Below, one piece after another: positions 6,530-62,927 of a stretch of DNA of 64,000 bases (position 1 is its first letter; every line of letters begins with the position of its first letter). The position numbers and the translations under genes are program-made. A model generated the notes under the pieces. The model saw only the letters and a list, made by a program, of their open reading frames with translations, was not told the origin of the DNA and made no database searches. This DNA comes from Lingula anatina (taxonomy: Eukaryota > Animalia > Brachiopoda), in the NCBI GenBank assembly GCA_051362555.1, contig CM120648.1:4832587-4896586 (forward strand), written 5' to 3'.

Positions 6530-8160
6530 ACTAGAGGATCAGAGAGGCGATACCGCCTCCGGATATTGTACCACCAGCTGGAGTAAGTGCATTCGGATGG
6601 AAAACCAAAAAAAAAAAAAAAAGGGACACCACTATCAGTCTTGTGCTTGACAAGCTCTATAAAATGCAATAAAACAAGAGTCCTCAAAATGCACAAAGAA
6701 CATAACTGTAAAAATGGTCCAATCAAGTGGTTTTTCCAATTGACCTGTATTTTCCTAATATTGATCACTCCTGTGATTTTCTACACAATAGGCCTGTTAG
6801 TTTTCCTTGAAATGTGTCATCAGTGTTGCATATATGCTGACAAAAGAAAAAAACCTAGAGGCATCACTGGGCATATCTCTCTTAGTTTTGAAGATAAGAG
6901 GGGCAAGAAAATATGCAAAGTTCAGTTCATGATAAAAAAAGTAGATCAAAGGTCAATTTCAAGGTCAGTTTATGACTTCCTATTCAGGTTCAATACTAAC
7001 TATGGATATTTATTTTGCCAATTTTGGAGATATAAAGGCCAGAAAACATGCACAGTACAGTTCATCATAAAAAGTAGGTCCAAGGTCTTCCTATTTAAGT
7101 TCAATAGTAACTATGGGCGTATCTCTGCCAGTTTTCGAGATATAAGGGAAAGAAAATTTCCAAAGTTCAGTTCATGGTAAAAATAAGGTCAAAGGTCAAT
7201 TTCAGGATCACAGTAAGATTGCCAGAATATGACTCCTATTCAAATTCAATAGTAATTATGGCGTATCTTTGCCAGTTTTGGAGATATAAAGATCAGGAAA
7301 CTTGCAAAGGGCAGTTCATCATGAAAAGTAGGTCAAAGGTCAATTTCAAGGTCACAGATAGATTATCAGTATATGACTTCCTATTCAAGTTCAATAGTAA
7401 CTATGGGCATGTCTCTGCTGATTTTGGAGTATTTCACATTTTATTTTCACCACTGAATATTGGATGTTGAACTTTTTGATATAGTACAACGCCTACGCCG
7501 TATCGAAAACAAAAAAACGGAAACAACCTTCAGTGTTGCACTTGACAAGCTCTACAAAATGCAAAAAACAAGAGGTCTCTTGCTTTAACGGTTCCAGAAT
7601 TAGAGAGAGTTTTCAGTTTCAGCATCTACCGGCTGCTATTCCCGTGAAAATGCACGTGCAAACTCACGAAGATGAAAGATAACCCTAGGGCTAACACCTG
7701 CCCATAATAATATTGGTTAAATCTGTGTAGTTTCTGAAAATTGGCAAAAATAAAATATTTTTCACAAAAAATTCTCAATTTTAGAAAATTTTGGCCCGTT
7801 TGACCTTTAAATAAAGGTCAAAGGTCAAATCCAGGGGCATATTTGAAATCTCCACATATGACTTAAGGTCAGCCATCTGTAGAAATTTTTCCCATAATTC
7901 CTTCGGTTTGGGAGATATTTAGCATTGAATTTTCAAAAATTTTGACAAGGGTGCGTTTCAACAAGCGTCACGCCCAGGCCAATGCACCGACTGAGACAAA
8001 AAACCAGGGGGTTCAAGCTGAGATTATATGTGACCTAAATCCAAGAGATGGGGACACAGGTCCTTGCGGTCTAGGAGGAGAAGCGGTAACGGTGACTTGT
8101 ATCCCACGCCATTCTGCGGAGCCGCAGGAGCCGCAGGAGACTAAAACTAATAACTGTATT
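6530..8160. mobile_element. Non-autonomous DNA element with internal tandem core repeats (Helentron/HINE-like architecture; family not certain, ends approximate)
   Basis: About 4 diverged 110-145-bp units at ~6880-7430 (shared ...AGGTCAAAGGTCAATTTCAAGGTC...TTCCTATTCAAGTTCAATAGTAACTATGG...TTTTGGAGATATAA). They are bracketed by a ~50-bp direct repeat (CTTGACAAGCTCTAyAAAATGCAA..AAACAAGAG at ~6645 and ~7541). The element starts ACTAGAG after an A-rich run. No transposase or Rep ORF. Confidence 0.55.
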
Positions 8161-11100: not shown

Positions 11101-12997
11101 GATTGTTGACTCTTAGTTACCAAGCAAAGCTTTATAGTTTCGTTATCACCCATTTCCTCTTTCTTTTTCTATATGAAATCTATGTTTAGCAGCGGGTCTG
11201 CGATTCAAACTTCTGTAACAAAGTACAAACGCAGGCCCTGTCATCTCGTTCACATCCTTTTTTTGGTTTGATTTCCAGATTTTAAAATTTTAATTTTGTA
11301 CTGTACTGAGAGTGACTGTAAGATACACCTAGCGAAACCATTCACGTGTATCAAAGAGACGATCATCGGCTGCCTTTGATGAACACCAACTCATCATCAA
11401 CGGGTCACTCCCCGGGGAGCAGAACGTGCCTGCCGATGCGGGCGTTCATGGCTGTCTCTCCCAAGTCGTCCGTGGGAGCTAAAAAAGCCGTTTTTGTGTG
11501 TAAATACGCCAAGCGAAGCGGAGCAAAGCAATGGCCTACTGGCAACCTGCCCGCCTTCTCTCTCTCCCCTCTACCAACCAAGTACAATGCCCGCCGTGGC
11601 AGAGTAAATTCGCCTTTATGACATGTCTATAGCAAATACTGTGGAAGCTTCCACTTCTTCTTTAACTTATTGTAACTAGGCGGTAGCATTACCTTAAAGC
11701 ATTTGATAGTAAATGTTAGATGTAAACATTGAACAACTGACGGTTTCAAATTGTGGATATTCTCCTCTCTGTTCCTTAGGTGTCTTCTTGATGATTAATA
11801 CGGGTACAGCGCCGGTGGTCGTTGTACTATAAACAAAATGAAATCAAACCAAAAATGGAACTTTTTTATTATTAAATAGTAGTGTCATTTTCCCGTGCGA
11901 CTTATGCCGGTGGCCGCAATATTATCAGCAAAATAAGACCAAACAAAAATGGGATTTTTTTTAGAATTAAATAGTGGCGGAATTATCCCTTGAAATCCTA
12001 AACCTGATAAATAAGGGTAATTTTTTTACGCATAGAAGCTGTGGAAAGTTTGAACTTAAGTTGTCATTCCTTCCTTCATCGACACGTTCTTTCTGTCTGT
12101 GGATTAAAGCGACACCCAATAATGAAATTAATTGTTTTATCGCTGATGTAACAAATTTGGGTTTTCTATTTCTGGTTTGTATTTTTCTGGTTTATTGTGC
12201 CAATGTTATGTTGGTATCCCCTTAAACAACTGGGGGGGGGGGTCATGTCGTAGATTTCAGATATGTACAAACATTGCAAAAGTCTCTACTGACGTCTCTA
12301 TTATATTTACCATGCCACTAAGTATGGAGGAATACTCAAAACCAAATCAAAAATTTGAAGAATACGCATGCCTTTGGTGTCAATAACATTGTTTTCTAAA
12401 TATTTAGTTTGAAAAGGATCAACCGGTGTTTAAAAACAAAGAAATACTCCCGTCCGTAACTCGTCTATTTTTACCAGAACCATCCAGCGAAGAACGCCGA
12501 GTCGCTGAAAGCTTCCAGCGCAACCCCACCTGGATTTGCACGTGCAGAAACTCATTTGGCAGATTATTGACAACTTTGTTGACAAACACGCGTAAACAAA
12601 AGGTGCAAACACGAGGGGTAATACCGCCACGCGGAGGTGATTAGTACCCCTCTGTAATTATCTGCTTAAAACAGTTCGCACGTGCGCGTGAAAGCATTAA
12701 TGCCAAGAAGCAAAGCTCGCCGCGGCAGTTGGGTTTCTTAATGACGGAGAACCCTGCCTTTGTTGTTTACCTGTTACTAATCCGTCGTCACTTTTGGTCG
12801 ATTTGAGTCGTGAATATTTAGAAGTAATCAGGTAAAAAGGTGAGGATAGAAATCAGGCCAGGGCGACCCACAGGTGGAAGAGCCGTGTGTCCAAATATTT
12901 CAGATATTTAGAAAACAAGTGAACGAGAGAATTGTTCTACTTTTTATTAAGTTTCTTTCTTTGCCATGACATCACCAGGAAATCGTTATGTGAAGAG

Positions 12998-13278
12998 TGT
13001 AGTGATCCGGCATCGGTGTGTGGCTTGTCTTGGCCTCGATCCGAGTCGAGGCTGAGTGTCAGTTTGGGAGAAACTCGATAGCTGTAAGGAGTGGGTTACA
13101 GCGAGGAGCACTGAGAACAAAGGGCGACGCCATTACTGTGAAGCAAGATAGAGATAGAGGTTGGAATCCTGATTTCTAGTGGTTATCTATAGGAAAGGGA
13201 TTTCGTTACTGCTAAGGTAAGCAGATTATTAGTAGAAATATCCGGAGCTAGAGTTGATTAGCGTAAGGGATTTCTATA
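12998..13278 (+). repeat. 5' LTR (281 bp, TGTAG...CTATA)
   Basis: Matches 23345-23625 with no mismatch found by eye; immediately followed by the PBS. Confidence 0.96.
13214..13222 (+). promoter_or_regulatory. Candidate splice donor in LTR (AAG|GTAAGC, GT at 13217-13218)
   Basis: Near-consensus 5' splice site; would pair with the strong acceptor at 20668-20669 before ORF3. Confidence 0.6.
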
Positions 13279-13279
13279 T

Positions 13280-13290
13280 TGGTGGCAGCG
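13280..13290 (+). promoter_or_regulatory. Primer binding site, tRNA-Leu type
   Basis: TGGTGGCAGCG one base after the 5' LTR; complementary to the ...CGCUGCCACCA 3' end of eukaryotic tRNA-Leu. Confidence 0.85.
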
Positions 13291-13541
13291 AAAACAACGA
13301 GCCCACGTTGCTGAATAAAAGTTTAAAAACGAGTAGTTGTTTGTTTTTTCATACAAATAGCTGTTTTTCTAGTTTATTCAGCGGTTTGCTTAGGCAGACG
13401 TTACTGTTTTGTAGAAATTTTGCAAGTAACAATTAAATTGTGGGTGCATTATTTCTAGAGGGGGCTATATTTATATATTTTCAATAAAGATATATTTATA
13501 GTCGTTTGTGTTCTTCATTTTTATATATATTGATATTAAAT

Positions 13542-16025
13542 ATGGAGAATGTACATGTCATTAAAGTCAACTCGGCTGACGTTCAGGAGCTGTCACTAAT
13601 ACCGGGTGTTAGTGATAAAATAGCTGAAACTTTGGTGTCAGCGAGACAAAATGGTGGACAAATCACCAGGGAGTTATTGCAACTAATAACTCGTAAGAAG
13701 TTGACGGATGATGTGGTGGAGTTATTAGACTTTACTCCTAATACTACCCTCTCTACAGTACAGCAAGCCTCTGGAGGTAACACCAGCGCGGATCAGAAAA
13801 TGGTGTCACGGGAGCCCAGTAGTTCTTCGGGTTTCGGGATTGGGTGTTTATGGACTTCTACACCCATTCGGTCACCCTTGAGTGAGGTACCAAGGGCTGA
13901 CGAGAGGCGCATGGTCTCCACGCCTGTACAGACAGGAGAGGGGATGAGGGAAATGGTCTCCACTTCAGTGCAGACGGTGGTATCTACACAGACTGGAGAC
14001 AAGTCGGAGTTACATAGGAGGTATGTAAACCTGGAACAGGCAGGTGTTAACCAGGCACCTGGGGGGATTCCTGTGGGTTCCAGACAGGAATCTCGAGGGC
14101 CAGCTAGAAGGCCGTTGAGTAAAATTCCGTGGGGAATAACTCCTATTCCCGAGAATCCAGGGCATGGTGATGACACTGAAGTGAAAATTCCATTCACTCA
14201 GGATATGCGTATACCTGGAAGGAAGACAGAAACCAGCCAAGTGCGACAGGCTACTGTACACTGGAAAACAGAGCCAGTCCCAGCTTACACCCGAGGGAGT
14301 CATGAGAATTATGGTGCAATGTATCAGCCAGGTCCATTCACACAAGGCCAAAATGGACCGACTACTGGGGTCAGACATGTAACTTTGCAGCCAGGTGTGG
14401 TCACACGGGACCAGTGTGGACCGAGTCTTGCTTTTATGCAAGATGGGCAGCAGTCAGGTGGGTTCACACAACACCAGTGTGGATCGAATCTTGCTTTTAT
14501 GCAAGATGTGCATCAGCCAGGTGGGGTCACACGAGACCAGTATGGACCGAGCCTTGCTTGTGTGCAAGGCGGGCAGCAGCAAAGGGAGGTCACACGAGAC
14601 CAGTATGGACTGTACCGAGATGTCAGACCAACAGGGTGGCAGCCAGATCAGGTCACACTAGATCACTATGGACCGAGCCATGCTTATATGCATGGTGAAC
14701 AGCTGCCAGGTGAATTTACACTGAACCATGGTGGACCGAATCGTGAAAACTGTGGTCGGGGTCTAGAGCCATTCAGACAAGACTGGTTGAGACCGGACTA
14801 TGGTGAACCAGTACCAGTTACCGGTATCAGCACTCAAGGATATGACTGTGGGGGGCCATACCAGGCGCCAGTCATTTCTCAGAGGAGAGCTGATGTACCC
14901 TGGGAACCAGTTCCTACTAATGAGGCTTCTTACCCTATGGAAGTCGGAGGTAGAGGTGTCCAGGGAGGACATCGTGGTGTACAGGGAAGATATAGTGGTG
15001 TCAATGGAGGACACGATGGTGATCATAGGAGTCATGGTGGATGGGGATCTACAGTTAGCGCCCCAACACGGAAGTTTAACCCTCCAAAGAACTTAGTCTT
15101 TGATGGGCGTGGTAACTGGACTGCATTTAAGAGCTTATTTGTCAGACATGCAGTTCGTGAACAGTGGGATGATGCCTTGTCCCTCGATGGGTTATGTTGG
15201 TGCCTGCGGGGAAAAGCTCAGGATTACTATGCTATACTGAGTCAACGGGTAGGTGGCCTAACATACCAAGTGTTGCTGCATGAACTGGAGAAACGGTTCG
15301 GAGAGCGAGATACGCCAGCTACAGCACAGTCGCGTTTCCAGAGTTCAGTTCAGGAGTCTAATGAGTCGTTAGATGACTGGGCTGATCGTGTGTTAACTTT
15401 GGCAGGTCGTGCTTACGAGGGCTTGCCGGAATCATTCACTGATATGCAGGCGGTGAATCGATTTTGTGCTGGTTTATTGGACAAGGAAGCGGGGCATGCT
15501 ATTTATATGCGGAGTCCTCCAACTGTTCGTGAGGCAGTGCGTTTGGTGAGGATGCATCAGCAAATGTACCAGGTGATGGAACACACGGTGCCGAGGAGGG
15601 GTCGTCAGGGAAACCCGAGAGTAAATCAGGTAGCGACGGCCGAAATACCTCCAACACCTGAGATGTCCAGGTTGGTCCAGTGTATGGAGAACATGGAGAA
15701 ATCCATTAAATCTTTACAGCTGGATGCGAAAAAGAAAACACCTCCTAATCCGGATATGTCCAAGTGGGTCCAGCGAATGGAGAATATGGAGAAATCTATT
15801 AAGTCTCTACAACTGGATGCGAAAAAGAAGGCGATCGAGAAAAGTGGGTCGCCGAAGGCAGAAAATGGGTCCAAGTCTGAGAGTAGACCTATGGATGGGA
15901 CTTGTTTTAAATGCCGGGAAAAGGGACATTTTATCCGTGAGTGCCCGAGATGGGGAGATGCCTTGGAAAAGAGACAAGATAAGGTCTCAGGGGCGAAGCA
16001 GGGAAACGCCAAGGGGTCGAGGTAG
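13542..16025 (+). CDS. gag: Gag polyprotein with N-terminal helix-hairpin-helix (ComEA/HHH_3-like) domain, repeats, capsid-like region and CCHC knuckle
   Basis: First ATG at 13542 (the ORF track starts at an upstream TTG). KVNSADVQELSLIPGVSDKIAETLVSARQNGG is HhH-like. FDGRGNWTAFKSLF...WDD...LRGKA...LEKRFG...QESNESLDDWADRV...RFCAGL is typical retrotransposon capsid. CFKCREKGHFIREC at 15903-15944. Confidence 0.93.
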   Translation: MENVHVIKVNSADVQELSLIPGVSDKIAETLVSARQNGGQITRELLQLITRKKLTDDVVELLDFTPNTTLSTVQQASGGNTSADQKMVSREPSSSSGFGIGCLWTSTPIRSPLSEVPRADERRMVSTPVQTGEGMREMVSTSVQTVVSTQTGDKSELHRRYVNLEQAGVNQAPGGIPVGSRQESRGPARRPLSKIPWGITPIPENPGHGDDTEVKIPFTQDMRIPGRKTETSQVRQATVHWKTEPVPAYTRGSHENYGAMYQPGPFTQGQNGPTTGVRHVTLQPGVVTRDQCGPSLAFMQDGQQSGGFTQHQCGSNLAFMQDVHQPGGVTRDQYGPSLACVQGGQQQREVTRDQYGLYRDVRPTGWQPDQVTLDHYGPSHAYMHGEQLPGEFTLNHGGPNRENCGRGLEPFRQDWLRPDYGEPVPVTGISTQGYDCGGPYQAPVISQRRADVPWEPVPTNEASYPMEVGGRGVQGGHRGVQGRYSGVNGGHDGDHRSHGGWGSTVSAPTRKFNPPKNLVFDGRGNWTAFKSLFVRHAVREQWDDALSLDGLCWCLRGKAQDYYAILSQRVGGLTYQVLLHELEKRFGERDTPATAQSRFQSSVQESNESLDDWADRVLTLAGRAYEGLPESFTDMQAVNRFCAGLLDKEAGHAIYMRSPPTVREAVRLVRMHQQMYQVMEHTVPRRGRQGNPRVNQVATAEIPPTPEMSRLVQCMENMEKSIKSLQLDAKKKTPPNPDMSKWVQRMENMEKSIKSLQLDAKKKAIEKSGSPKAENGSKSESRPMDGTCFKCREKGHFIRECPRWGDALEKRQDKVSGAKQGNAKGSR

Positions 16026-19000
16026 GGGGCCTATCCTCGATCCGAGATGACGCTAGGTCAGACGTCAAAGAAACTGATGATAAGGCCCGAGAAAAAGGAT
16101 CTGAAGCAGAAAAGAACAAACCTGAACCAGAGGTGGTATATGTGAATCAGATTGGATCCGTATCCGACTACTCTTTAAAAATCAGAGTAGGTGATAAAAC
16201 AGTGAGGGCATTAGTGGATACCGGTGCTCGTGTCACCATTTTATCTGACAGTATCTACAATAGCTTGAAAAATCCGCCGAGAAAATTAAAGGATGTGCAG
16301 TTGTGGGCTGCAGGGCGGAAGATGGCTATGCCGGGTTTTATCGCAGGTCCGATAAAATTAAAAATTGGACACAAGTGGTATACGGAAACAGTATACGTGG
16401 CTCCTTTGGAGGAAGAGATGTTGCTGGGAGTCGACATATTGAGAGATCGGGGTCAAGCCATGATTGATGTTGGAAGAGGGATTCTGCACTTCGATGACAT
16501 GAGTTTAACGTTGGACTGTTGCCTGGAGAAGGGTGTTCCCCAGGTAGCACGCGTTATGGTGTCAGAGCGCCGGGTAATTCCTCCTAACTCTGTAGTCAGA
16601 GTGGCATGTAAAATGGATATGGACCTCGATGATTATGTCATAGAGCCAGTGGAGAGGGGCGCGTGTAATTTCTTGGTTCCAAGGGTTATACGTAATAGGG
16701 GGAGTGACCCTATTATGGTGCTGATTAACCCAAGTGACAGGTATAAGCTGCTACAGAAGGGGTCAGAAATTGGGAGGGCTTTTTCTTATGAAAAAGTCGT
16801 GACGTCTGGACAAGCGTTTGACGAACATGTGCAATGTGGTTCAGTTTCGACTGAGTCGAGGGTGTCTAGTACGACATCGAGTCAAACTGAAGAGGATGTG
16901 GTGAGAGTAAATTACTCTATTCCTGCACCGCGGAGGCCTAAGGTGAGACCAGCCGAAGGCGAGGGTGAAGAAAGGCCAGGGGTTCCTCCACATTTACAGA
17001 AGGTGTTCGAGGAATCGAGTACAGAGTTGAGCGAGGACCAGCAAGCTCAACTGGGTCAAGTACTGACCGAGTTTCAAGATGTGTTTGCCCAAAGTGAGTT
17101 TGACTTAGGTAATTTTACTGCCTTAGAACATACTATTGACACGGGGCAAGCGAGGCCGATCAAGCAGAGGATGCGGCGTACACCAGTGTGTTTTGCTAAT
17201 GAGGAGGAGGCTCATCTGCAGAAAATGATCCAAGCAGGGGTAATACAAGAATCCACATCGGATTGGGCGTCAGCGCCGGTGTTAATTCGTAAAAAAGATG
17301 GTAGCGTTCGTTACTGCATTGACTACCGTGCCTTGAATGAAGTTACCACTAAGGATGTATTCCCACTGCCACTGGTGGACAATTGTTTGGATACCTTGTC
17401 GGGTAGCGTTTTCTTTAGTAAGTTGGATGCAAACTCAGCTTATTGGCAGGTACCCATTCGAGAGGAGGATAGAAAGAAGACCGCGTTCATAACAAAGTAT
17501 GGATTGTATGAACACATTCGCATGGCGTTTGGTCTTTGTGGGGCACCAGCTACCTATGCCAGAATTATGAATTTGGTCTTTCGAGGTTTATCATGGAAGA
17601 CGGTGCTGGCGTTTCTGGACGATATAGTGGTGCTGGGTGCGAGTTTCGAGATTCATCTGCAGAATCTGCGTGAGGCTCTAATGAGGTTTAGAGCGTATGG
17701 GCTAAAGTTAAAGCCGAAGAAGTGTTCTTTCTTCCAAAGAAAGATCGAGTTTCTAGGTCGAGTAGTGACTGGGGACACCTTAGCCATGTCGGAGCATGAT
17801 ATCCAGGTGGTCAGAGATTGGCCGATGCCAACATGTGGAAAGGATGTCGAGAAATTTATGGGCCTAGCAAACTACCACAGGACGTTTATCAAGGACTTTT
17901 CCAAACTCGCTGCTCCACTATATGCCATGACTGGTAAGAACAATTTTCAGTGGGGTGAGGAGCAATCTGTGTCATTTAGATCACTGAAGGAAGCATTAAC
18001 TTCACCACCAGTGTTGGCTATTCCGAGGCAGGATGGCGAGTATATTTTGGACACAGATGCGAGCGAGTATGCCATTGGAGCAGAGCTGCTTCAGGTACAA
18101 GATGGCGAGGAAAAAGTTGTAGCTTACGGAAGCTACGGCCTCACGAAAGAGCAGAGGCGGTATTGTACAACACGTAAAGAGCTGCTTGCTGTTGTACGTT
18201 TCACCAGGCAGTATAGACACTATCTCCTGGGGAGGCCATTCATGGTGAGAACCGACCATTCAAGCTTGCGTTGGTTAATGAGGTTCAAGGAGCCGCAGGG
18301 TCAGTTGGCGCGATGGTTAGAGGAGCTGTCGCAGTTCAACATGGTTCTATCACATCGGGCAGGGCGACTTCATGCAAACGCGGATGCACTGTCAAGAGCT
18401 GGACACACGGGGCAGTGTTTAACGTTTGGGACAGGAGTACACCTTGGAGATCTACCCTGTGGAGGATGTGAATATTGTAAGCGTGCTCACTCAAACTGGG
18501 CCAGGTTTGAGGAGGAGGTTGATGATGTGGTGCCATTGGTGATCCGAGGGGAAAACCAGGGGGGTACCAGGAGCGTCGAAAGCGAAGAAACCTCAAGTGA
18601 CCGACAGAGTAACAGTGGCAAGACGGTAAACACTGTTATGGTTGACTCAGTGAGGCAGTTTTCAGAACCGGAGGTATTGGGGCCAGTGGTAGATACCTCG
18701 CCTGATGAAAAGGTGGAAGACATGCCTGAGTACCATATGTTGAGAGAGGTGATCGAGAATATCCCATGGGACCCAGGAAAATCGGTCCGAGTTAATGTGA
18801 TCACCACTCGTCAGCAGGCTAAAAAGATGAAAAGAACGCCTGAAGTGGGCTCTACTGGTGTAGAGTCGAGTTCAAAAGAAGTGGGCTCTACTGGCGTAGA
18901 GTCGAGATCAACTAAAGTGGACTCTAAGGATATAGAGTCGAGACCAGCTGCAGTGGGCTCTAATAGTACAGAGTCGAGGTCAACTGTGAAGGCTGAGAGT

Positions 19001-20557
19001 AAGAGTACCTCAGGGCTGCGCAGTTGGGGGTATTCAGTGGAAGAAGTGAAAGCGGCACAGAAAGCAGATCACGATGTGAATCTGATTAGGGAGTATGTGG
19101 ACAACGCCATTATTCCAAATCAGTCTACTCTATTCAGAGGGAGCAAGGAATTAAAGTCTTATTGGCTGGATAGAGAGATGTTTGTAATGATTGATGGTGT
19201 ACTGTATTGGTCAGATCCGAAGACTGACGATAAGAAGTTAGTGCTTCCACATGGATTGCGAGTTAAGGCAATCGAGTTACACCACTGTTTACCATCAGCA
19301 GGACATCAGGGAGTCTCTAGGACTAAAGAGAGACTTCGAGAACGTTTTTATTGGCACAAGTTAGGCCGAGATGTGGATAACTTTGTGCGAGGCTGCGCAA
19401 GTTGCAATCAAAATAAAAAGTCGGCAAGACATGGCCGGGGTGCTTTAACCGAGTTCCAGGCTGGAGAACCTATGGAACGTGTACACTTGGATTTTCTGGG
19501 TCCTCTACCGAAGAGCACCAGGGGAAATGAGTACATACTCATGATGGTTGACCAGTTTACCAAGTGGGTGGAGTGCATCCCGCTTCCATCGCAGTCTGCT
19601 GAGGAGACAGCGCAGGCGGCAGTCGAACAGTTTTTCTCACGGTTCGGGGTACCGTTTGAAATATACACGGATCAAGGAAGAAATTTTGATTCGAAGCTGT
19701 TCACTGAGGTGTGTAGGATATTGGAGATCCATAAAGCACGGACGACACCCTATCGCCCATCTTCCAATGGTCAGATTGAGAGGTACAATCGGACATTGAT
19801 GGACGCAGTGCGTTGCTTTACAGAGAGATCTCAAAACCAGTGGGATCTTCATCTACAGCAAATTGCCGGGGCTCTCAGGTCATCGGTCAACAGGATGACA
19901 GGTTTTACGGCTAACAAGCTGATGTTGGGCAGGGAAGTCAACACTCCTGCTGGAATAATGTTCCCACAGAAGGGAAGAGAGCCGAGTAGTACCGAGGGGT
20001 ATGTGGCTGAGTTAGAAGCCGACCTACAGAAGGCGCACGAGACTGCCCGAGGTAAGCTCAAAGTATCTTCTAAGCGTATGAAGCGGGATTACGACCTGAG
20101 GATTTTGGAGCGAACCTATGCGGTCGGGGATTCAGTTTACATACTGGATGCGGCCGGAGGCCGGGGGAAGTGTAAGAAACTATGTCCCCCGTGGAAGGGT
20201 CCGGGAGTCATCGTGGAGAGGCTGAGCTCGTATTTATACCGGGTGAAGGTAAGAAATGCGGTGTTCGTGGCCAATCATGACAGGTTAAAACCTTGTCGAG
20301 ACAGTGAGATACCTCTGTGGATCCAGCAATGGAGAAAAAATCCCGTGGTTGACTCTACAGTCAAAGGGGATGACAGAGTGTATTGTCGCTGTAGGCAGAA
20401 ATGGCAGGGCCGATTCATGATACAGTGCGATTATTGTAGTGAATGGTATCATGGGTCTTGTGTAAACATTACTGCGTCTGACGCCCTCTCGATAAAGAAG
20501 TACAAGTGTGAGGATTGCACACGTCGATTGGTGCGTCCGGGCCATAATCGTGTATAG
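15983..20557 (+). CDS. pol: Pol: aspartic protease - reverse transcriptase - RNase H - integrase - PHD finger (translated as Gag-Pol)
   Basis: ALVDTGA (D at 16217); RT WASAPVLIRKKDGSVRYCIDYRALN, KLDANSAYWQ, MAFGL, FLDD (17612-17623); RNase H LDTDAS...ELLAV...TDH...NADALSR; integrase H..GH..CASC zinc finger and LDFLGP/TDQG/GQIER core; C-terminal C4HC3 PHD at 20378-20518. Confidence 0.97.
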   Translation, partial: GLRGEAGKRQGVEVGGLSSIRDDARSDVKETDDKAREKGSEAEKNKPEPEVVYVNQIGSVSDYSLKIRVGDKTVRALVDTGARVTILSDSIYNSLKNPPRKLKDVQLWAAGRKMAMPGFIAGPIKLKIGHKWYTETVYVAPLEEEMLLGVDILRDRGQAMIDVGRGILHFDDMSLTLDCCLEKGVPQVARVMVSERRVIPPNSVVRVACKMDMDLDDYVIEPVERGACNFLVPRVIRNRGSDPIMVLINPSDRYKLLQKGSEIGRAFSYEKVVTSGQAFDEHVQCGSVSTESRVSSTTSSQTEEDVVRVNYSIPAPRRPKVRPAEGEGEERPGVPPHLQKVFEESSTELSEDQQAQLGQVLTEFQDVFAQSEFDLGNFTALEHTIDTGQARPIKQRMRRTPVCFANEEEAHLQKMIQAGVIQESTSDWASAPVLIRKKDGSVRYCIDYRALNEVTTKDVFPLPLVDNCLDTLSGSVFFSKLDANSAYWQVPIREEDRKKTAFITKYGLYEHIRMAFGLCGAPATYARIMNLVFRGLSWKTVLAFLDDIVVLGASFEIHLQNLREALMRFRAYGLKLKPKKCSFFQRKIEFLGRVVTGDTLAMSEHDIQVVRDWPMPTCGKDVEKFMGLANYHRTFIKDFSKLAAPLYAMTGKNNFQWGEEQSVSFRSLKEALTSPPVLAIPRQDGEYILDTDASEYAIGAELLQVQDGEEKVVAYGSYGLTKEQRRYCTTRKELLAVVRFTRQYRHYLLGRPFMVRTDHSSLRWLMRFKEPQGQLARWLEELSQFNMVLSHRAGRLHANADALSRAGHTGQCLTFGTGVHLGDLPCGGCEYCKRAHSNWARFEEEVDDVVPLVIRGENQGGTRSVESEETSSDRQSNSGKTVNTVMVDSVRQFSEPEVLGPVVDTSPDEKVEDMPEYHMLREVIENIPWDPGKSVRVNVITTRQQAKKMKRTPEVGSTGVESSSKEVGSTGVESRSTKVDSKDIESRPAAVGSNSTESRSTVKAESKSTSGLRSWGYSVEEVKAAQKADHDVNLIREYVDNAIIPNQSTLFRGSKELKSYWLDREMFVMIDGVLYWSDPKTDDKKLVLPHGLRVKAIELHHCLPSAGHQGVSRTKERLRERFYWHKLGRDVDNFVRGCASCNQNKKSARHGRGALTEFQAGEPMERVHLDFLGPLPKSTRGNEYILMMVDQFTKWVECIPLPSQSAEETAQAAVEQFFSRFGVPFEIYTDQGRNFDSKLFTEVCRILEIHKARTTPYRPSSNGQIERYNRTLMDAVRCFTERSQNQWDLHLQQIAGALRSSVNRMTGFTANKLMLGREVNTPAGIMFPQKGREPSSTEGYVAELEADLQKAHETARGKLKVSSKRMKRDYDLRILERTYAVGDSVYILDAAGGRGKCKKLCPPWKGPGVIVERLSSYLYRVKVRNAVFVANHDRLKPCRDSEIPLWIQQWRKNPVVDSTVKGDDRVYCRCRQKWQGRFMIQCDYCSEWYHGSCVNITASDALSIKKYKCEDCTRRLVRPGHNRV
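16001..16043 (+). promoter_or_regulatory. -1 programmed ribosomal frameshift signal (gag-pol)
   Basis: G_GGA_AAC heptamer in gag phase at 16001-16007, then a 6-nt spacer and a hairpin GGGTCGAGGTAGG/ggg/CCTATCCTCGATCC (16014-16043). The pol frame is -1 and open from 15983 (TAA at 15980-15982). Confidence 0.88.
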
Positions 20558-20635
20558 ATTAAGGTCGAGTAGAGGGTTAAGGTTGAGTGGAGATAAGAGT
20601 TTAATTAGCTAAGAGTTTAGCTTAAGTCAAATAAC

Positions 20636-20669
20636 TCTTACTCAAAATTCTTCTCTTTTTTCTTTTTAG
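20636..20669 (+). promoter_or_regulatory. Candidate 3' splice acceptor for ORF3
   Basis: CTTAC branch-point-like motif, then a pyrimidine tract TTCTTCTCTTTTTTCTTTTT and AG immediately before ATG 20670. The tract stands out in an otherwise purine-rich strand. Confidence 0.75.
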
Positions 20670-23072
20670 ATGGAAGAGCAGAAGTGGCTTAACCTTATTA
20701 AGCCGATCCAAGAGGCCTGCAAGGAGAAGAGGCTCCACCCAAGCCGGGAGTTGGTAAATGTGATTGCCAGCCGACCCATGGCCTTGCAGGGGGATGCTGA
20801 GGCACTGTTGCTGAAGCAGGTGGCACTCTCTAGGGAGAGAGATGCGGAGGCTTGGCGCAAAGATTGTGCCAAGGGCCTGTTGGCTGTAGGTTTTCAATCC
20901 TGCAGTTGGGTATGTGAGCATGTTGCCAGGGTTGCCACTCCCAGAAAAGGGAAGGGTACTCGAGAGGCGTGGCATGCCACATATCGAGATTTCCGATTGC
21001 AAGAGGATCCTACTATGGAGCATAGGAAGGATACAGTGACTCAGAGCACTGTGGTAAGAGGAAGTCCTGAAGCAGCAGTGCGAGGGGAGAGTGAGGAGTC
21101 GGGGTCAGTATCAGACAGCATACTGAGGACTCCCACTGAGTCAATGGAGGTGGACACACCTTCGAGTCCGGTGAGGAAGTCACCGAGGGCTACCCTTACC
21201 AGCTGGGGTAGTGAAATGGACTTGTGTGAAAAGATAACCTATGCTGAGGCGGTCAAGAAACCAAGTCCGAGTGGTGTGGTAGTGACACAGAGTCGAGACA
21301 AGTCAAGTAAGACTGGGGGCTCTTACCAACCACGGCCTAAGAGTCGAGTATGGTTAGTAAAGAAGACCAAGGACTCAACAACAAGGCAGGATGCACCTCC
21401 TAAGGGACCTTCAAAATTCACCAAGAAGGATGAGGAAAAAAGGTGTTTCCGATGTAAGAAAGTAGGGCATGTGGCTCGGAAGTGTCCAACTCTGTCCGAG
21501 GAAGAAAGGTGCTTCAGATGTTCAGAGCTGGGGCACATAGTCAAAGATTGCCCACTTTCAAGGAAAGCGGCCAAGGACAGGAAAGAAGTGTCTAAGGCGA
21601 GACGAGATGACTCCAGGGGGAGTTCATCGGGCAGGCGTGATGACTCCAGGGGGAGTTCATCCTATAAACCTGCGACAAGTGGTCTCGAGGAGCTGGGTAC
21701 ATGGGCCCATGCTAAGAGATCGAGGCAGAGTAGTAGCTCCAGTCATGGAGGAGTTACTAGTGCCGTGGCCACAGGAATTAGTGCGCCGAGTCCTGACTTG
21801 TGTCCTATTTTTGGATGCAATAGTCAGTTAACGGAGAAACACGCATGGAACAAACATATCCCTCCAGTGTTTCATCCCGTGTTCGACGGTAAGGGGATGG
21901 AAAAGAGAAGATTTTTGGCCCTTAATCTTCTAGCCACCCAGCTATTTGGAATGAACGCAAATATGGACAGGTTATGTCAAGCCTGCGATGTCATGGACCA
22001 GGGAGATCGGGAGATAGCTCCGAGTAGGAAAGAGGGTGTGGACAGCTTCATCCACGGCCTGGGGTTGTCAGGCGAGTATGCCCTCAGAGTGGGATCTCTC
22101 CTGTTGTGGAAGCCTTTGCTAAGCCTAATAGCGAAATTATGGCCGTCAGACCTGGAGGCGTATAGGAACACATGTTCCATAGAAGAGGAGGAAGAGCTGT
22201 CTATTCCTAAGCCTCCAGTAGGATACGACAGTCACTGTCACGTAGATCGTGTACGCCAGCACTTGGAGTTACCAACAACAGCTGGGTTACGGGAGGTCAT
22301 CGAGGCCAAGCAGGTGGATGACAAGGAGATAACAGTGTCAGGGGCCACTGTTATATTCTGCGACCCAGCAACCTACCCAAGTGCTGAGGAGGTGGCTACT
22401 CTGAAGGCAGAGGGAGCCGTGGTGTCTGTGGGTTGGCACCCCAGACACGAGTTTGACCCAGAGGGCTGGGCGAAGTTTGAACAGACAGTAAGCAACCCAG
22501 AGGTGTCTGTTCTGGGTGAGATTGGTGTAGATTACACTACCTCATCGTGGCAGTGGGAAGCTCAGTTTGAAGTCCTGGAAAGAGCTCTTACATTATTAAG
22601 AGAAGACCAGGTACTGGTGCTCCACTGTCGAGGGCCCAAGGATGACTCAGCTGGTGATTTGGTTTGGAGACATGTTTTGAACATTCTTCGATTAGCTGAG
22701 AATGTGAAAAGTGATCAGTTAATACACTGTCACTGTTTCACGGGGTCAAGGAGGATGGTAGAGAAGTGGGTACAGTATTTTCCCAATACTTACTTTGGAG
22801 CTACTGCCATCTTCAGGACGTATACGGATACGTCGAGGAGTAGGAGAGCGATAGAGATGTTACAGTGGATGCCTGCTGGCAGGTTATTGCTGGAAACTGA
22901 TGCCCCCTACTTCGGATTTCCGACAAGGAGTAAGTCCACTCCAGCTTTCCTGGGGAAAGTAGCGGAAGTCGTTGCAAAAATTCGTGGGTGTGACTGGGAA
23001 GATATTCTCAAGATCACCGAGGAGAATGGGCGTCGGTTATATCTAGACCGACTGGGGCCCAGTGTGGAGTAA
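20670..23072 (+). CDS. ORF3: 800-aa protein with 2x CCHC zinc knuckles, a C2H2-like motif and a C-terminal TatD-family deoxyribonuclease
   Basis: CFRCKKVGHVARKC and CFRCSELGHIVKDC (21444-21551); CPIFGC...HAWNKH. TatD motifs in order: DSHCH (from 22221), VGWHP, GEIGVDY, VLHCR, HCFTG, LLETDAPY, EN..RLY. No signal peptide or TM segment seen. Confidence 0.92.
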   Translation: MEEQKWLNLIKPIQEACKEKRLHPSRELVNVIASRPMALQGDAEALLLKQVALSRERDAEAWRKDCAKGLLAVGFQSCSWVCEHVARVATPRKGKGTREAWHATYRDFRLQEDPTMEHRKDTVTQSTVVRGSPEAAVRGESEESGSVSDSILRTPTESMEVDTPSSPVRKSPRATLTSWGSEMDLCEKITYAEAVKKPSPSGVVVTQSRDKSSKTGGSYQPRPKSRVWLVKKTKDSTTRQDAPPKGPSKFTKKDEEKRCFRCKKVGHVARKCPTLSEEERCFRCSELGHIVKDCPLSRKAAKDRKEVSKARRDDSRGSSSGRRDDSRGSSSYKPATSGLEELGTWAHAKRSRQSSSSSHGGVTSAVATGISAPSPDLCPIFGCNSQLTEKHAWNKHIPPVFHPVFDGKGMEKRRFLALNLLATQLFGMNANMDRLCQACDVMDQGDREIAPSRKEGVDSFIHGLGLSGEYALRVGSLLLWKPLLSLIAKLWPSDLEAYRNTCSIEEEEELSIPKPPVGYDSHCHVDRVRQHLELPTTAGLREVIEAKQVDDKEITVSGATVIFCDPATYPSAEEVATLKAEGAVVSVGWHPRHEFDPEGWAKFEQTVSNPEVSVLGEIGVDYTTSSWQWEAQFEVLERALTLLREDQVLVLHCRGPKDDSAGDLVWRHVLNILRLAENVKSDQLIHCHCFTGSRRMVEKWVQYFPNTYFGATAIFRTYTDTSRSRRAIEMLQWMPAGRLLLETDAPYFGFPTRSKSTPAFLGKVAEVVAKIRGCDWEDILKITEENGRRLYLDRLGPSVE

Positions 23073-23330
23073 GAATACCACGACGCTGGCCAGGAGGGGT
23101 ACGACCTGGTCAGGAGAAGAGGCTGGGAAGGAGTTTTCCTAGTGATGAGTACCGTGTATTGATTCCTTGGCTGGTCAGCTTGGGCTGATCGAGAAGCGAC
23201 AAGGGATCTGGTAGAGAGAATGGAGTGGGCGGTCCTTGGCTGGGTCAGCATGGGCTGATCGAGTAGTGATACAAGGATCGTAAGAATGTGTTGTTGGTGT
23301 TGGATTGTAATGACTACCTCCAATCCAGAT

Positions 23331-23344
23331 AAAGTGGGGAGGAG
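23331..23344 (+). promoter_or_regulatory. Polypurine tract
   Basis: AAAGTGGGGAGGAG directly abutting the 3' LTR. Confidence 0.85.
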
Positions 23345-23625
23345 TGTAGTGATCCGGCATCGGTGTGTGGCTTGTCTTGGCCTCGATCCGAGTCGAGGCT
23401 GAGTGTCAGTTTGGGAGAAACTCGATAGCTGTAAGGAGTGGGTTACAGCGAGGAGCACTGAGAACAAAGGGCGACGCCATTACTGTGAAGCAAGATAGAG
23501 ATAGAGGTTGGAATCCTGATTTCTAGTGGTTATCTATAGGAAAGGGATTTCGTTACTGCTAAGGTAAGCAGATTATTAGTAGAAATATCCGGAGCTAGAG
23601 TTGATTAGCGTAAGGGATTTCTATA
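23345..23625 (+). repeat. 3' LTR (281 bp)
   Basis: Copy of 12998-13278; followed by TSD AGAG. Confidence 0.96.
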
Positions 23626-25001
23626 AGAGGAAATGCGTTTATCATATTATTGCTCCTGAAGACGGCAATACGTTTTATAATGTTTTTGTTATCCTTTTTC
23701 GGAGTCAGTACCCGGGCCTGTGCTATCTATGATGTCTCTAGACTAATTCCAGGATTAAACTGAAATGAAATTTATTGTCCTAGAGGAAATATGGAGCAGC
23801 AATATTGAAGTCAGAACTAAGTAGAGATAAGTGATAAGGTGTCGGTTTTCTGGATAAATGATAGAAAAATTATTAAAGAATTTATTGTTGATAGCAACAA
23901 GGAGTTGTATCATAAACCTCCTTGATAAAAACATAAGAAAAGGTTAACAAGTGCACGGAAGGCAGCAACAATTCTTTATTTAATATAATATGTTGCCGCC
24001 TTTTGAAAATTGGAAAAAAATCTATAACCATGGATTTGTGAGAAGAAAAAGCACAGAATTTAATCTCCACACCACTCCCAAACCTAAATAACCTACATCG
24101 AAGACATTTATGCTAACAGGGTCTGCTTCAAATTAGATCCCAACCGAAATGTTTTGTCTTCTTAGACTTTTCGCAATTCAATTCAGTATAATGTCTTTAT
24201 TAAATTTGATTCATTGGCACCTCCTGTTCCCTAAGCCGGGCTGCATGCACGGTATAATAGATGGCACGCGGTCCACGCGAGGCAAATCTCCTCGTGCCGG
24301 GAAACGGGTAGACGCCGGGCCCATATTGCGAGGAAATTTGTTCAAAAATTGAGATAACGTTAAGCCCATTGGACGCTGGCATTCTTTGGGTTCTAAATCA
24401 ATCTTTATGGAGCCATCGTGATATCTTCGAAGGGTAATCCCTTCATTCTTTCTCGAGACTTTTTGTGTAGATTTATAACGGGTATCAAGGCAATTAGCGC
24501 CCCGCCTGCCCTCATGGATGATGCATTTATCTATCCATGTGTCTGGCCCCTCTATCTGGCAAAGGCCTTCAATGAGGCACATGCATAATGATACGCCATA
24601 ATGTCAATTTAAATAATATCAGTATAAGCAAAATCGCAAGAGGTAAGCTTTAAAACAAATTTCTCATGATTGTTATATATTTATCATTCCCCGAAATGTG
24701 CCATCCACCGCATCGCATTCTCTGAGCCAGATGTATGTGTATTCATACAACAGACCAGTTTTAGGCACAGAGTGGGCGGTATTGACAACAGCCATGCCCT
24801 GTATGTGTATATTTCAAAGCAATAGATAATACGCACAAACGTTCCCTCGTCTCCCTGTATCTCGGAATGCGTTATCGTGGTTCACGCCATGTTTGACAAA
24901 AACCTGGAGTAAAACATCTAATAACCACGCGAAGAGAGCAAATTCAGATTGTAAAGCGGTTCTACTTAACCGCTGACCAACTGCCCTGGAATGTTCGAAT
25001 G

Positions 25002-26248: not shown

Positions 26249-27051
26249 TCACCATGGTCTCCACATTCTGTCATTTCTGTTGAGCTCAGCGTTTACAAAA
26301 CTATGTCCATTGTTGTTTCCATCAACTTTACAAAAGTTTGTCAGTGGCGCCAAACCAGATTCAACTGTTGTCTGCTTCTGCTGCTGAGCGGGACTGAGCT
26401 GGTGCATTGTGGGAATGTTCAAGACGGTGGGAGAAGTCGTCTGCAACTGTTGTTGTCCCTGCTGCTGCTGCACGTTCGGTGATGTTTGCAAAACGATGGG
26501 CATGGCAGTGACATTATTTACTGGGCTTATAACATTGGATTGCTGTTGTAGCAACTGTCCATTTTGAATTTGGCTGGGGCTTTGCAGAATATATGCCACC
26601 TGTCCATTTGGAAGCGTGCCTGGAATGAGTTGGAATGATCCAGTGATGTTCGACTGAACTAGTCCATTTTGAGGGCATGAGACGGTAGGCTGTTGCTGAG
26701 TTTGCTGTGGTTGACATGGCAACATACTCGGCGTCGTCACGGTGGTAAACTGGGAAGCGCTTGGAATCTGAACGTGGATTGGCTGGAGAGTTTGCGGTTG
26801 TGGTTGCTGCGGCGCTGCTATTGTCTGTGGAGCTGTGATCGTCTGCTGCACGGTTGACGCAGACGATGACGTCTCTGATGGCGTGACTTGGTTGACTTTG
26901 TATGCGCAGGAGGCGAGGTGGTTCAGGAGGTGCAGGCGGACGTCCTCGTTAATTCCGTCAATAGAACGCATGTAACGCGTCACCTCGTTGGCACATTCAT
27001 TGAAGCCCGCTCTATACTTTCCTAGCACGCTTGGGTCACTGGTGACAGCAG
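26249..27051 (-). CDS. Hes: Hes-A exon 4 (Orange domain, Q/P/S/T-rich tail, WRPW)
   Basis: cag| acceptor at 27054-27052, phase 1; AAVTSDPSVLGKYRAGFNECANEVTRYM...LLNHLASC; ends MWRPW-TGA. Confidence 0.96.
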
Positions 27052-27249
27052 CTGAAGAAGATAAACAAAACAACATAAGAAAAAAATCCTCAAGCCAAAA
27101 TTCAAAAAGACAACACTGTCACATAAACTAGTAGACATATTCAAATGTAGTACCAAATTGCATAAATCACCGAACAAGTTTGCTAATTGAAATATAAGCA
27201 TAATGTAAATTTGGTTGATTAACGACACATTTTGACTATATTCTCTTAC

Positions 27250-27337
27250 CTGCCATTTGTTGTCTTTGAATGCTTCTCAGATGTTTCACCGTCATTTCTA
27301 AAATGTCTGCTTTCTCCAACTTGGAATACCGAGACGT
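27250..27337 (-). CDS. Hes: Hes-A exon 3 (bHLH helix 2)
   Basis: [29 protein letters not shown]; 88 nt with cag/GTAAGA boundaries. Confidence 0.96.
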
Positions 27338-27542
27338 CTGTAAAAACAAAGAAATAAAACATAAACACAAACCCAAAACATAAAAATATGAAAAAATGTA
27401 CTCGACAGTAGTTGGAAAATTCAGTAACGATCAACGAATACATTGAACAGTAGTCAACGAATGCCCTTTTAACAAAAAACATCCCGAAAGAAATTAATCT
27501 CAACCGACTGCGTGTTGTCGTGTTGTGTTGTCACTCGTTAAG

Positions 27543-27638
27543 TTGACCCCAGCGCCCCCTCGCGTCTGCTGGCGCGTGTCCTGCTAGTGACCCGTTGCGA
27601 AAGTTAAAGCATCGTCTGCTTCGAGAGCGTGGGAACGA
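27543..27638. promoter_or_regulatory. Conserved intron-2 module of Hes-A
   Basis: TGACCC, CGTCTGCTnGCGCGTG, GTGACCCGT and GAGCGTGGGAACG occur in the same order as at 52624-52718. Confidence 0.7.
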
Positions 27639-27972
27639 ACCGCATTAAAGCAACCTAAGGAATTTTCAGTCACGTGCTGGCCACACTTTGTCAAATTTCA
27701 TTAATTCTAACTTTAAGAAGTGGTTAGTTGAATAAAGATACATTGTTCTCCAAACTTAATCAGAGTTGTCGTCTGCAATCAAAGCTTGTCGTCTCCCGAA
27801 TTGCGTTTTTTTTTCTAACCCCGAGGTTTTACTTTTTAAGACGTCTCATTTTACAGCAAATTTTCGCTGTCTCAATAACTTTCTAAGTTTGTTTAGTTTT
27901 CAAGTCGGAAAATGTTTATTCTAAACTATCGGGTGGCTTCAATTTGTGTCGTATATAAAGAGGGATACTTAC

Positions 27973-28068
27973 ATCTCTTTGCATTGCCTGCAGCACAAGG
28001 GCTTTCAACTCTGTTAAACATTCATTAATTCTTTGACGTCTGCGTTTTTCCATCAAAGGTTTGTTAGT
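27973..28068 (-). CDS. Hes: Hes-A exon 2 (basic region/helix 1)
   Basis: TNKPLMEKRRRQRINECLTELKALVLQAMQRD; 96 nt; hairy-type proline in the basic region; cag/GTAAGT. Confidence 0.96.
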
Positions 28069-52225: not shown

Positions 52226-52313
52226 CTGTCATTTGCTGGCGCTGCACTGTTCTTAAGTGTTTCACTGTCATCTCCAAAATGTCCGCCTTTTCTAACTTTG
52301 AATACCGTGATGT
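52226..52313 (-). CDS. Hes: Hes-B exon 3
   Basis: [29 protein letters not shown]; 88 nt; cag/GTAAAT. Confidence 0.96.
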
Positions 52314-52623
52314 CTGAAAAGAAAGAAGCGAGATGTCCTTAATGATATAGTTTTCTTTAACCACAGGAGTTGACTCCAAAATTCAGCTATCAATTAACAA
52401 ACAGAACACGCCAAAACAAACTGAACCCTTCATTTTGGGGACTAATGGCACACAAGCGTATCAAAGTTCTCTTTTTTTCCTTTGATTGCTGGATATTTTT
52501 ACAGTTGGGACAAAACCTGAATTGTAAATAGAAATGTAACCGACCACCTTGTTCGGGAACAATAGAAGCCTTGTATAGCAACTTTTTAGGGGATGATCAT
52601 ATCCCATAATATACACATCACCC

Positions 52624-52718
52624 TGACCCACGTGACCCTAACGTCTGCTAGCGCGTGCCACAGCGGTGACCCGTGGAGGGAAAATGAACCGTTTATTTTC
52701 TGACGAGCGTGGGAACGT
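52624..52718. promoter_or_regulatory. Conserved intron-2 module of Hes-B
   Basis: Collinear motifs with 27543-27638, including the CSL site GAGCGTGGGAACG. Confidence 0.7.

Positions 52719-62309: not shown

Positions 62310-62353
<44 letters not shown>

Positions 62354-62597: not shown

Positions 62598-62640
<43 letters not shown>

Positions 62641-62884: not shown

Positions 62885-62927
<43 letters not shown>

What the first reader, a model, noticed from the sequence alone, without database searches (positions are those of the whole stretch)
20670..23072. Gypsy retrotransposon carrying a CCHC-knuckle/TatD nuclease gene in the env position
Seen: an intact 800-aa third ORF between pol and the 3' LTR. 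It has two Gag-type CCHC knuckles and a C-terminal domain retaining all TatD signature motifs (DxHxH, GxHP, GEIGxDY, LHxR, HCFTG, ETDAPY). Established: TatD proteins are metal-dependent TIM-barrel nucleases (3'-5' exonuclease; AP-endonuclease activity reported for TATDN proteins), normally cellular genes. Third ORFs of Gypsy/errantiviruses are usually membrane env proteins. Inference: the element has captured a nuclease and tethered it to nucleocapsid-like RNA-binding knuckles, perhaps to load it into particles. It could trim or proofread cDNA, clear reverse-transcription by-products before cytosolic DNA sensors detect them, or attack competing elements. I cannot verify whether this architecture is already catalogued.
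Basis: partly seen in the sequence, partly recalled or inferred. Interest (0 to 1): 0.92.

Follow-up and report, generated by a model that had tools for sequence, protein, structure and literature searches.

The report
Gypsy clade carrying TATDN2-type nuclease gene
A young, intact jumping gene in a brachiopod genome carries a third gene for a TatD-type nuclease with all its metal-binding residues, related elements in other marine animals carry the same gene, and it likely helps the element by trimming RNA, probably out of RNA-DNA hybrids, rather than by serving as a viral coat protein.

Summary
Confirmed. Window 12998-23625 is a complete Ty3/Gypsy element (identical 281-bp LTRs, 4-bp target duplication). 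Its 800-aa third ORF has two CCHC knuckles and a TatD domain (Pfam E 3e-38) with all seven active-site residues. The protein is identical to one annotated as an uncharacterised Lingula anatina gene. It is no one-off transduction: 135 divergent relatives form one clade beside animal TATDN2-like proteins, 106 of 118 keep the active site, some are multicopy, and seven other records tie the gene to a pol of the same PHD-bearing clade. The knuckles are not the conserved part (5 of 61). Conserved instead are an N-terminal helical domain and a C-C-H-H finger domain with no Pfam family. ORF3 is probably made from a spliced message (signals seen, junction not observed). An ORF3-less variant is transcribed. 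Particle loading by knuckles is weakened; a trans-acting RNA/hybrid nuclease like human TATDN2 is my best guess, untested. Nuclease ORF3s are known (rotifer DEDDy); TatD was not found in the papers searched, and Repbase/Dfam were not checkable. This scan noted the same layout before in sea-urchin and flatworm DNA.

The parts
12994..12997 (.). target-site duplication AGAG (left)
   Evidence: flanks read; the same 4 bases follow the 3' LTR at 23626-23629
12998..13278 (+). 5' LTR, 281 bp, TG...TA termini
   Evidence: 100% identical to the 3' LTR
13214..13222 (+). splice-donor-like site AAG|GTAAGC in the LTR (cut 13216|13217), candidate donor for an ORF3 message
   Evidence: first of 3 MAG|GTRAG sites between the start of the element and ORF3; no ATG upstream in the LTR; use not observed
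13280..13290 (+). primer-binding site TGGTGGCAGCG
   Evidence: directly after the LTR; match to a tRNA-Leu 3' end is recalled, not tested
13542..16025 (+). gag, 827 aa: N-terminal helix-hairpin-helix, Retrotrans_gag, one CCHC knuckle
   Evidence: HHH_3 E 1.5e-06, Retrotrans_gag E 9.7e-07, zf-CCHC E 2.7e-05
16001..16007 (+). in-frame slippery heptamer G GGA AAC followed by a hairpin; likely -1 gag-pol frameshift
   Evidence: 83-nt downstream fold -30 kcal/mol; frameshifting itself inferred
15983..20557 (+). pol, open for 1524 codons: protease, RT, RNase H, integrase, C-terminal PHD finger (about 20384-20518)
   Evidence: RT-RNase H closest to Ty3 among solved structures, E 5e-81
20645..20669 (+). 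polypyrimidine tract and TAG directly before the ORF3 ATG: candidate splice acceptor
   Evidence: 19 of 22 pyrimidines, the highest of 386 YAG sites in the element (next best 16)
20670..23072 (+). ORF3, 800 aa, TatD-type nuclease protein
20670..20939 (+). ORF3 N-terminal helical domain (aa 1-90), conserved in the family, no Pfam family
   Evidence: only generic helical-repeat matches, best Z 8.3
21444..21551 (+). two CCHC knuckles (aa 259-294) inside a disordered linker (aa 94-373); present in few relatives
21789..22199 (+). C-C-H-H-x-P finger-like motif (C378, C383, H391, H396, P398) plus helical domain (aa 374-510), the family hallmark
   Evidence: invariant in 28 aligned proteins; motif in 106 of 140; zinc binding inferred
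22212..23048 (+). TatD domain, group II (HxH), with H522, H524, E617, H652, H688, E742, D744
23330..23344 (+). polypurine tract
23345..23625 (+). 3' LTR
23626..23629 (.). target-site duplication AGAG (right)

Best explanation
This is a recently inserted Ty3/Gypsy element whose third gene encodes a TATDN2-type TatD domain with a complete active site, shared by a wide clade of related elements; the protein is likely made from its own spliced message and likely acts in trans as a 3' RNA nuclease that strips the element's RNA from RNA-DNA hybrids or structured RNA, which would ease its replication and lessen host recognition. Shown: anatomy, intact active site, family, link to pol, TATDN2 affinity, loss of ORF3 in some transcribed copies. 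Inferred: splicing, catalytic activity, RNA preference, nuclear site of action, benefit to the element. The descriptive part (a conserved element-borne accessory nuclease gene) I hold at about 0.9; the confidence given is for the mechanism.
For: Clade: 135 element-type TatD domains form one branch (support 96) beside 29 host TATDN2-like rows, together 100 against prokaryotic TatD (195 rows); IQ-TREE on 36 rows gives element 14 rows 100 and element+host 99. C564-x-P566 and H686 are shared with host TATDN2-like proteins (116, 128, 117 of 135; 29, 28, 29 of 29) and are not among the common letters in prokaryotic rows. 106 of 118 rows keep all seven active-site residues; mean identity to this protein is 38.5% in TatD against 17.4% in the linker. 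Link to pol: P0090 and P0416 join integrase and ORF3 domains in one record, P0142 (Nucella) has the ORF3 N-domain right after the PHD (iE 6e-09); 3 of 9 ORF3 contigs of 6-20 kb have exactly the length of a pol contig (expected 0.06-0.12), including best pol hit with best non-Lingula ORF3 hit; one 1,356,528-bp contig is shared. Multicopy: clusters of 39 and 40 members. Human TATDN2 is an RNA 3' exo/endonuclease that degrades the RNA strand of R-loops and needs the residues matching E617 and E742 (PMC10711561 abstract and section 22; mapping via E. coli TatD). The element's sense strand is G-rich (GC skew 0.225 against about 0 in the flanks). The linker before the finger is basic in 42 of 53 relatives, with an NLS-like motif in 24 of 53 against 11.8 expected. 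No membrane segment (best Kyte-Doolittle 19-mer 1.3).
Against: No activity, localisation or substrate was measured. TatD enzymes also cut ssDNA and abasic sites (PMC10085689), and the element domains are only about 30-35% identical to host TATDN2-like proteins, so specificity may have shifted. This copy has no NLS-like motif by the pattern used. A purine-rich sense strand is common in retroelements (recalled), so the skew is weak support. RNA depth over ORF3 was under 1 and no splice joint was listed (39, 0 and 38 reads in three runs). An ORF3-less variant is transcribed in run X18 (4 reads, 3 starts), and 12 of 118 relatives have lost active-site residues, so the gene can be dispensable. Link to pol is shown for 8 loci only (this window and 7 others); the other clade members are assumed mobile. 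Two pol contigs share the length 9450, so length coincidences do occur. No eukaryotic TATDN1 or TATDN3 was in the trees.
Confidence: 0.42

Rival explanations
1. Counter-silencing factor: the nuclease degrades host small RNAs, their precursors or double-stranded RNA, so that the element escapes piRNA/siRNA control.
For: Human TATDN2 cuts double-stranded hairpin RNA (PMC10711561). Separate accessory gene with likely own message. An unrelated 3' exonuclease (DEDDy) was taken into the same slot at least twice in rotifers, where a role in silencing was discussed (PMC5408684). Two conserved unknown domains could bind a host factor.
Against: No data on small RNAs here. The N-domain matched only generic helical repeats. 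Small-RNA 3' ends are often 2'-O-methylated and resist exonucleases (recalled).
Confidence: 0.22
2. One reading: the protein is packaged into particles through its knuckles and edits cDNA or clears reverse-transcription by-products.
For: Two knuckles spaced like nucleocapsid and LIN28 knuckles; basic disordered linker; TatD proteins are 3'-5' exonucleases on ssDNA (PMC10085689).
Against: Knuckles in 5 of 61 full-architecture relatives, absent from the closest one P0003. Gag has its own knuckle and pol its own RNase H. A 3' exonuclease inside the particle would threaten primer and cDNA ends (inference).
Confidence: 0.18
3. DNA-repair helper at integration: AP-endonuclease or 3'-trimming activity tidies the gapped integration intermediate or protects the germ line from element-caused damage.
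For: TATDN1, TATDN3 and the three E. coli paralogues are AP endonucleases (PMC10085689 abstract). A paper title reports Tatdn2 needed for DNA repair in primordial germ cells (PMC12709183, listing only). The clade carries other chromatin/DNA modules (PHD on integrase, HhH on Gag).
Against: Human TATDN2 was much less active on DNA than on RNA. Host repair normally finishes integration (recalled).
Confidence: 0.12
4. Neutral passenger: a host TATDN2 copy picked up recently and not needed.
For: ORF3-less variant transcribed; some relatives are decayed; many cluster members are short (8 of 15 listed under 500 aa in one cluster).
Against: Only 30-35% identity to any host TATDN2-like protein; own clade with deep branches; active site kept in 106 of 118 while the linker is scrambled; element-specific domains.
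Confidence: 0.04

Closest known systems
Juno and Vesta LTR retrotransposons of bdelloid rotifers with DEDDy exonuclease ORF3 (PMC5408684; passages and one section part read)
   Same: Gypsy-like element, non-env third ORF, 3'-5' exonuclease with catalytic residues kept, function unknown; the paper notes ORF3s are typically expressed from spliced messages
   Different: Different fold (TIM-barrel TatD against DEDDy); 'TatD' occurs 0 times in that paper; here an old clade across brachiopods, molluscs and echinoderms with two extra conserved domains
Human TATDN2 (PMC10711561; abstract and section 22 read)
   Same: Group II HxH TatD domain at the C-terminus behind a long disordered region; same three catalytic acids; shared CxP and HxH-C letters in the host TATDN2-like set
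   Different: Element-borne, single open frame, multicopy; about 30-35% identity to animal TATDN2-like proteins; has the C-C-H-H finger domain, found in none of the 9 named host rows of the small tree
Errantivirus and retrovirus env (Drosophila gypsy; recalled)
   Same: Third ORF between pol and the 3' LTR, acceptor-like site before it and donor-like site near the 5' end
   Different: No membrane segment, no env family hit; enzyme fold
TatD family, group II: YcfH, YjjV, TATDN3 (PMC10085689; abstract, sections 12 and 15 read)
   Same: HxH motif, metal ligands, fold (Foldseek E 4.5e-11)
   Different: Cellular, stand-alone enzymes; 22-24% identity in the structural alignment

Membership tests
Ty3/Gypsy LTR retrotransposon (Metaviridae) | Direct LTRs with target-site duplication, PBS and PPT | tested here: met
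   identical 281-bp LTRs, AGAG duplication, PBS at 13280, PPT before 23345; termini are TG...TA, not the usual TG...CA
Ty3/Gypsy LTR retrotransposon (Metaviridae) | gag, then pol in the order protease-RT-RNase H-integrase | tested here: met
Ty3/Gypsy LTR retrotransposon (Metaviridae) | RT closest to Ty3/Gypsy RTs | tested here: met
   Ty3 E 5e-81, caulimovirus-type polyprotein 9e-45, retroviral RTs 1e-23 or weaker; no tree with BEL references
A named Gypsy clade (GyDB, Repbase, MolGy) | RT tree placement with reference elements | not testable with these tools
   no reference set held
Errantivirus-type env-bearing element | ORF3 is a membrane glycoprotein | tested here: not met
   best hydrophobic 19-mer 1.3; no env family among Pfam hits
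Errantivirus-type env-bearing element | ORF3 expressed from a spliced subgenomic RNA | tested here: inconclusive
   donor-like and strongest acceptor-like sites present; no joint at low depth
TatD nuclease (PF01026), group II | Profile score above the curated cut-off over the whole domain | tested here: met
   132 bits against 27; below the equivalog cut-offs of bacterial NCBIfam models, as expected for a distant member
TatD nuclease (PF01026), group II | TIM-barrel fold, HxH motif and metal ligands | tested here: met
TatD nuclease (PF01026), group II | Metal-dependent nuclease activity | not testable with these tools
   needs biochemistry
TATDN2 clade | Groups with TATDN2-like proteins apart from prokaryotic TatD | tested here: met
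   support 100 and 99; eukaryotic TATDN1 and TATDN3 not in the trees; sequence search ranks TATDN3 weakly (E 7e-04) and lists no TATDN1
Host TATDN2 orthologue or recent transduction | Nested among animal TATDN2 genes with high identity | tested here: not met
   9 named animal rows form a branch (97) that excludes the element proteins; identity 28-35%; no Lingula host TATDN2 was retrieved
Juno/Vesta DEDDy ORF3 | DEDDy exonuclease domain | tested here: not met
   Pfam and fold give TatD only; it may still work alike

The most novel reading that the evidence does not exclude
An ancient Gypsy lineage captured a TATDN2-type gene once, rebuilt it with two new domains, and has used it ever since as an active RNA nuclease against host defence: the first transposon-encoded enzyme that erases the R-loops or nascent RNA on which nuclear small-RNA silencing depends. 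Many 'TATDN2-like' or uncharacterised genes in marine invertebrate annotations would then be element genes.
Probability: 0.25. Interest if true: 0.86.

Novelty: new variant of a known kind. Interest (0 to 1): 0.63.

Why it matters
Accessory genes of LTR retrotransposons other than env are poorly understood, and the rotifer DEDDy ORF3s showed no clear selection within genomes. Here a different nuclease fold sits in the same slot across a deep clade with its active site kept in about nine of ten members, which points to a recurring need for a 3' nuclease in these elements and gives a soluble enzyme that can be assayed directly. It also warns that TatD/TATDN2 counts in brachiopod, mollusc and sea-urchin annotations are inflated by element genes, and it adds two conserved domains with no Pfam family.

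Tried and rejected
No whole genome is held for the window, so copy number and host TATDN genes in this genome were not counted. Scans for related DNA returned only TatD-domain matches of 24-35% identity, which I read as prokaryotic (80 metagenome loci, 11 viral loci); they served as outgroup. The 'longer' search gave 16 long animal proteins with TatD only and no pol fusion. No RNA holder was listed by the run index; run X15 laid 0 reads and is no test. The splice junction and dN/dS of ORF3 remain open: only 1 of the 37 coding differences shown lies in ORF3 (pol 18 silent to 7 replacing, gag 5 to 6; 43 rows not shown). Fold searches for the two unknown domains: Foldseek no match at E 0.001; VIA-align only generic helical repeats for aa 1-88, best Z 8.3, rmsd 2.7, 83 aligned, and the finger domain was barely tested; no viral structure beyond one giant-virus TatD-like protein. 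The protein atlas did not answer. A mixture-model tree did not return; one search used LG+G4. Pol clusters against ORF3 clusters on megabase contigs: 1 shared length among 150 listed pol members, so this test gave little. No J-domain in 54 relatives scanned. Literature: TatD + LTR retrotransposon + Gypsy 0 papers; TatD + retrotransposon 21, none on this by title and abstract start; TATDN2 + transposable element 9; TatD + transposon + Repbase 3; TatD + transposable element + captured + nuclease 0; searches gave no description of this clade in their listings. 'TatD' occurs 0 times in the main texts of PMC5408684, PMC6238403, PMC8556966 and PMC12440569; their supplements were not seen. Repbase, Dfam, GyDB and subscription journals could not be searched, so the family may be catalogued there.

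Full report
Observation. The frame 20670-23072 is open for 800 codons from an ATG. It lies after a 1524-codon pol and before a 281-bp LTR that is identical to the LTR at 12998-13278; both are flanked by AGAG, and a primer-binding site and polypurine tract sit where expected. Gag and pol are open, with a -1 slippery heptamer and hairpin at their overlap. The domain order and the RT's closeness to Ty3 make it a Gypsy element; identical LTRs show a recent insertion. ORF3 scores 132 bits on TatD_DNase over the whole profile and has two CCHC knuckles. The protein is 100% identical to a record named LOC106158303 of Lingula anatina, so the host is most likely that brachiopod and the public annotation treats ORF3 as a host gene.

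Anatomy of ORF3. The model has three confident parts: a helical N-domain (aa 1-90), a finger-plus-helical domain (aa 374-510) and the TatD barrel (aa 515-793), joined by a disordered linker that holds the knuckles. The barrel matches TatD structures. It has the group II HxH motif described in PMC10085689 (section 12 read), and E617, E742 and D744 align with E. coli TatD E91, E201 and D203, which PMC10711561 equates with the catalytic residues of human TATDN2 (section 22 read). There is no membrane segment. The N- and finger domains have no Pfam family and no telling structural match.

Family. The word-index search found 71 proteins and the full search 154 at E 1e-30 or better, 150 listed. For the tree I kept TatD domains of at least 235 aa (224 from proteins, 60 prokaryotic) and thinned them to 195 rows. 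135 rows form an element-type branch (96), sister to 29 host TATDN2-like rows (94), together 100 against prokaryotes. A 36-row IQ-TREE run gives the element rows 100 and element plus host 99; nine named animal proteins form their own branch (97) without the element rows, while three unnamed host-like rows fall outside it, one next to the element branch at 84. So the gene came from a TATDN2-type donor, long ago or from outside the sampled animals; long branches and the absence of TATDN1/3 limit this. Of 118 element rows that cover all seven active-site positions, 106 keep them all. Identity to this protein averages 38.5% in TatD, about 24% in the N- and finger domains and 17% in the linker. The C-C-H-H-x-P motif is invariant in 28 aligned proteins and present in 106 of 140. 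Knuckles occur in 5 of 61 full-architecture proteins, so they are an optional linker ornament. Named carriers are Lingula (three families), Pecten, Haliotis and Lytechinus.

Are the relatives on elements? Genomic context could not be fetched, so I used indirect links. P0090 (second Lingula family) and P0416 hold integrase and ORF3 domains in one record, and a Nucella gene model has the N-domain directly after the integrase PHD. Of 9 ORF3 relatives on contigs of 6-20 kb, 3 have exactly the contig length of one of 83 pol relatives on contigs under 20 kb, against 0.06-0.12 expected; one pair is the best pol hit (71%) with the best non-Lingula ORF3 hit on a 9771-bp contig. One megabase contig length is shared as well. 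Two ORF3 clusters have 39 and 40 members, the first spread over many different large contigs. That makes seven links beyond this window; for the rest of the clade mobility is inferred, and some members may be domesticated or dead.

Expression. The strongest pyrimidine tract of 386 YAG sites in the element ends at the base before the ORF3 ATG, and a consensus donor lies in the LTR with no ATG before it. This predicts an env-like subgenomic message. Three RNA runs laid 39, 0 and 38 reads, with depth under 1 over ORF3 and no such joint, so this is not shown. Four reads of run X18 come from a variant that lacks ORF3. Nine DNA runs of three studies hold at least half of the ORF3 words; one may be the window's source.

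Mechanism. A separate, dispensable, catalytically intact TATDN2-type enzyme most simply acts in trans. Human TATDN2 trims RNA 3' ends, cuts hairpins and removes the RNA strand of R-loops while sparing DNA. The element's sense strand is G-rich, and the family's linker is basic with an excess of NLS-like motifs, though this copy has none by my pattern. I therefore favour removal of element RNA from hybrids or structured RNA (0.42), then attack on host small-RNA pathways (0.22), particle-borne cDNA editing (0.18), repair at integration (0.12) and neutrality (0.04). All of these are inferences; no activity was measured.

Comparison and novelty. Enzymatic ORF3s are known: rotifer Juno and Vesta elements carry DEDDy 3' exonucleases in the same slot (PMC5408684, passages and one section part read), and a review passage lists these among accessory domains (PMC6338049). 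A TatD ORF3 was not found in the searches or in the main texts checked; supplements, Repbase, Dfam and GyDB were not seen. Earlier notes of this scan describe the same layout in a sea urchin and disarmed J-domain fusions in a flatworm; they are leads, not support, and one gave me PMC10085689. Verdict: a real, new variant of a known kind, interest 0.63.

Noticed in passing
window 13548-13706: Gag begins with a ComEA-like helix-hairpin-helix motif (HHH_3); two related Gag-Pol records (P0208, P0398) have it too, so it seems a clade trait.
   Followed up: partly
window 20384-20518: Integrase ends in a PHD finger; most of the 120 listed pol relatives carry PF00628, suggesting chromatin-guided integration.
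   Followed up: partly
P0191: A pol of this clade has a Tpt1/KptA RNA 2'-phosphotransferase domain (E 4e-43) inserted between integrase and PHD.
   Followed up: no
window 20549-23084, run X18: Four RNA reads join the end of pol to the 3' untranslated region with other letters between: a diverged variant without ORF3, not a GT-AG splice.
   Followed up: partly
window 26249-28062 and 50584-53539 (-): Two tandem Hairy/E(spl) (Hes) genes with bHLH, Orange domain and WRPW end; the element lies 2.6 kb downstream of the first.
   Followed up: partly
P0127, P0138, P0148, P0177, P0218: Pol relatives are deposited under bacterial MAG names (Candidatus Thiodiazotropha, Sedimenticola, Desulfobacterales), probably host DNA in the bins.
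   Followed up: no
P0279, P0339: Two unnamed TATDN2-like proteins outside the element clade carry 8 and 4 CCHC knuckles before the TatD domain: a separate knuckle-TatD fusion.
   Followed up: no
P0240/P0378, P0003: Lingula holds at least three divergent ORF3 families, all annotated as uncharacterised host genes; one has isoforms differing by a 25-aa internal stretch.
   Followed up: partly
window 14325-14746, 15643-15828, 18842-18985: In-frame tandem repeats of 63, 93 and 36 nt inside gag and pol.
   Followed up: no
PMC6962438: The giant squid Hox cluster figure lists an inserted 'TATDN2' next to a pogo element; it could be an element-type gene.
   Followed up: no
window 62310-63181 and 6901-7429: Three 287-nt tandem copies at 99% identity, and a decayed repeat family of about 110-144 nt spacing.
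   Followed up: no
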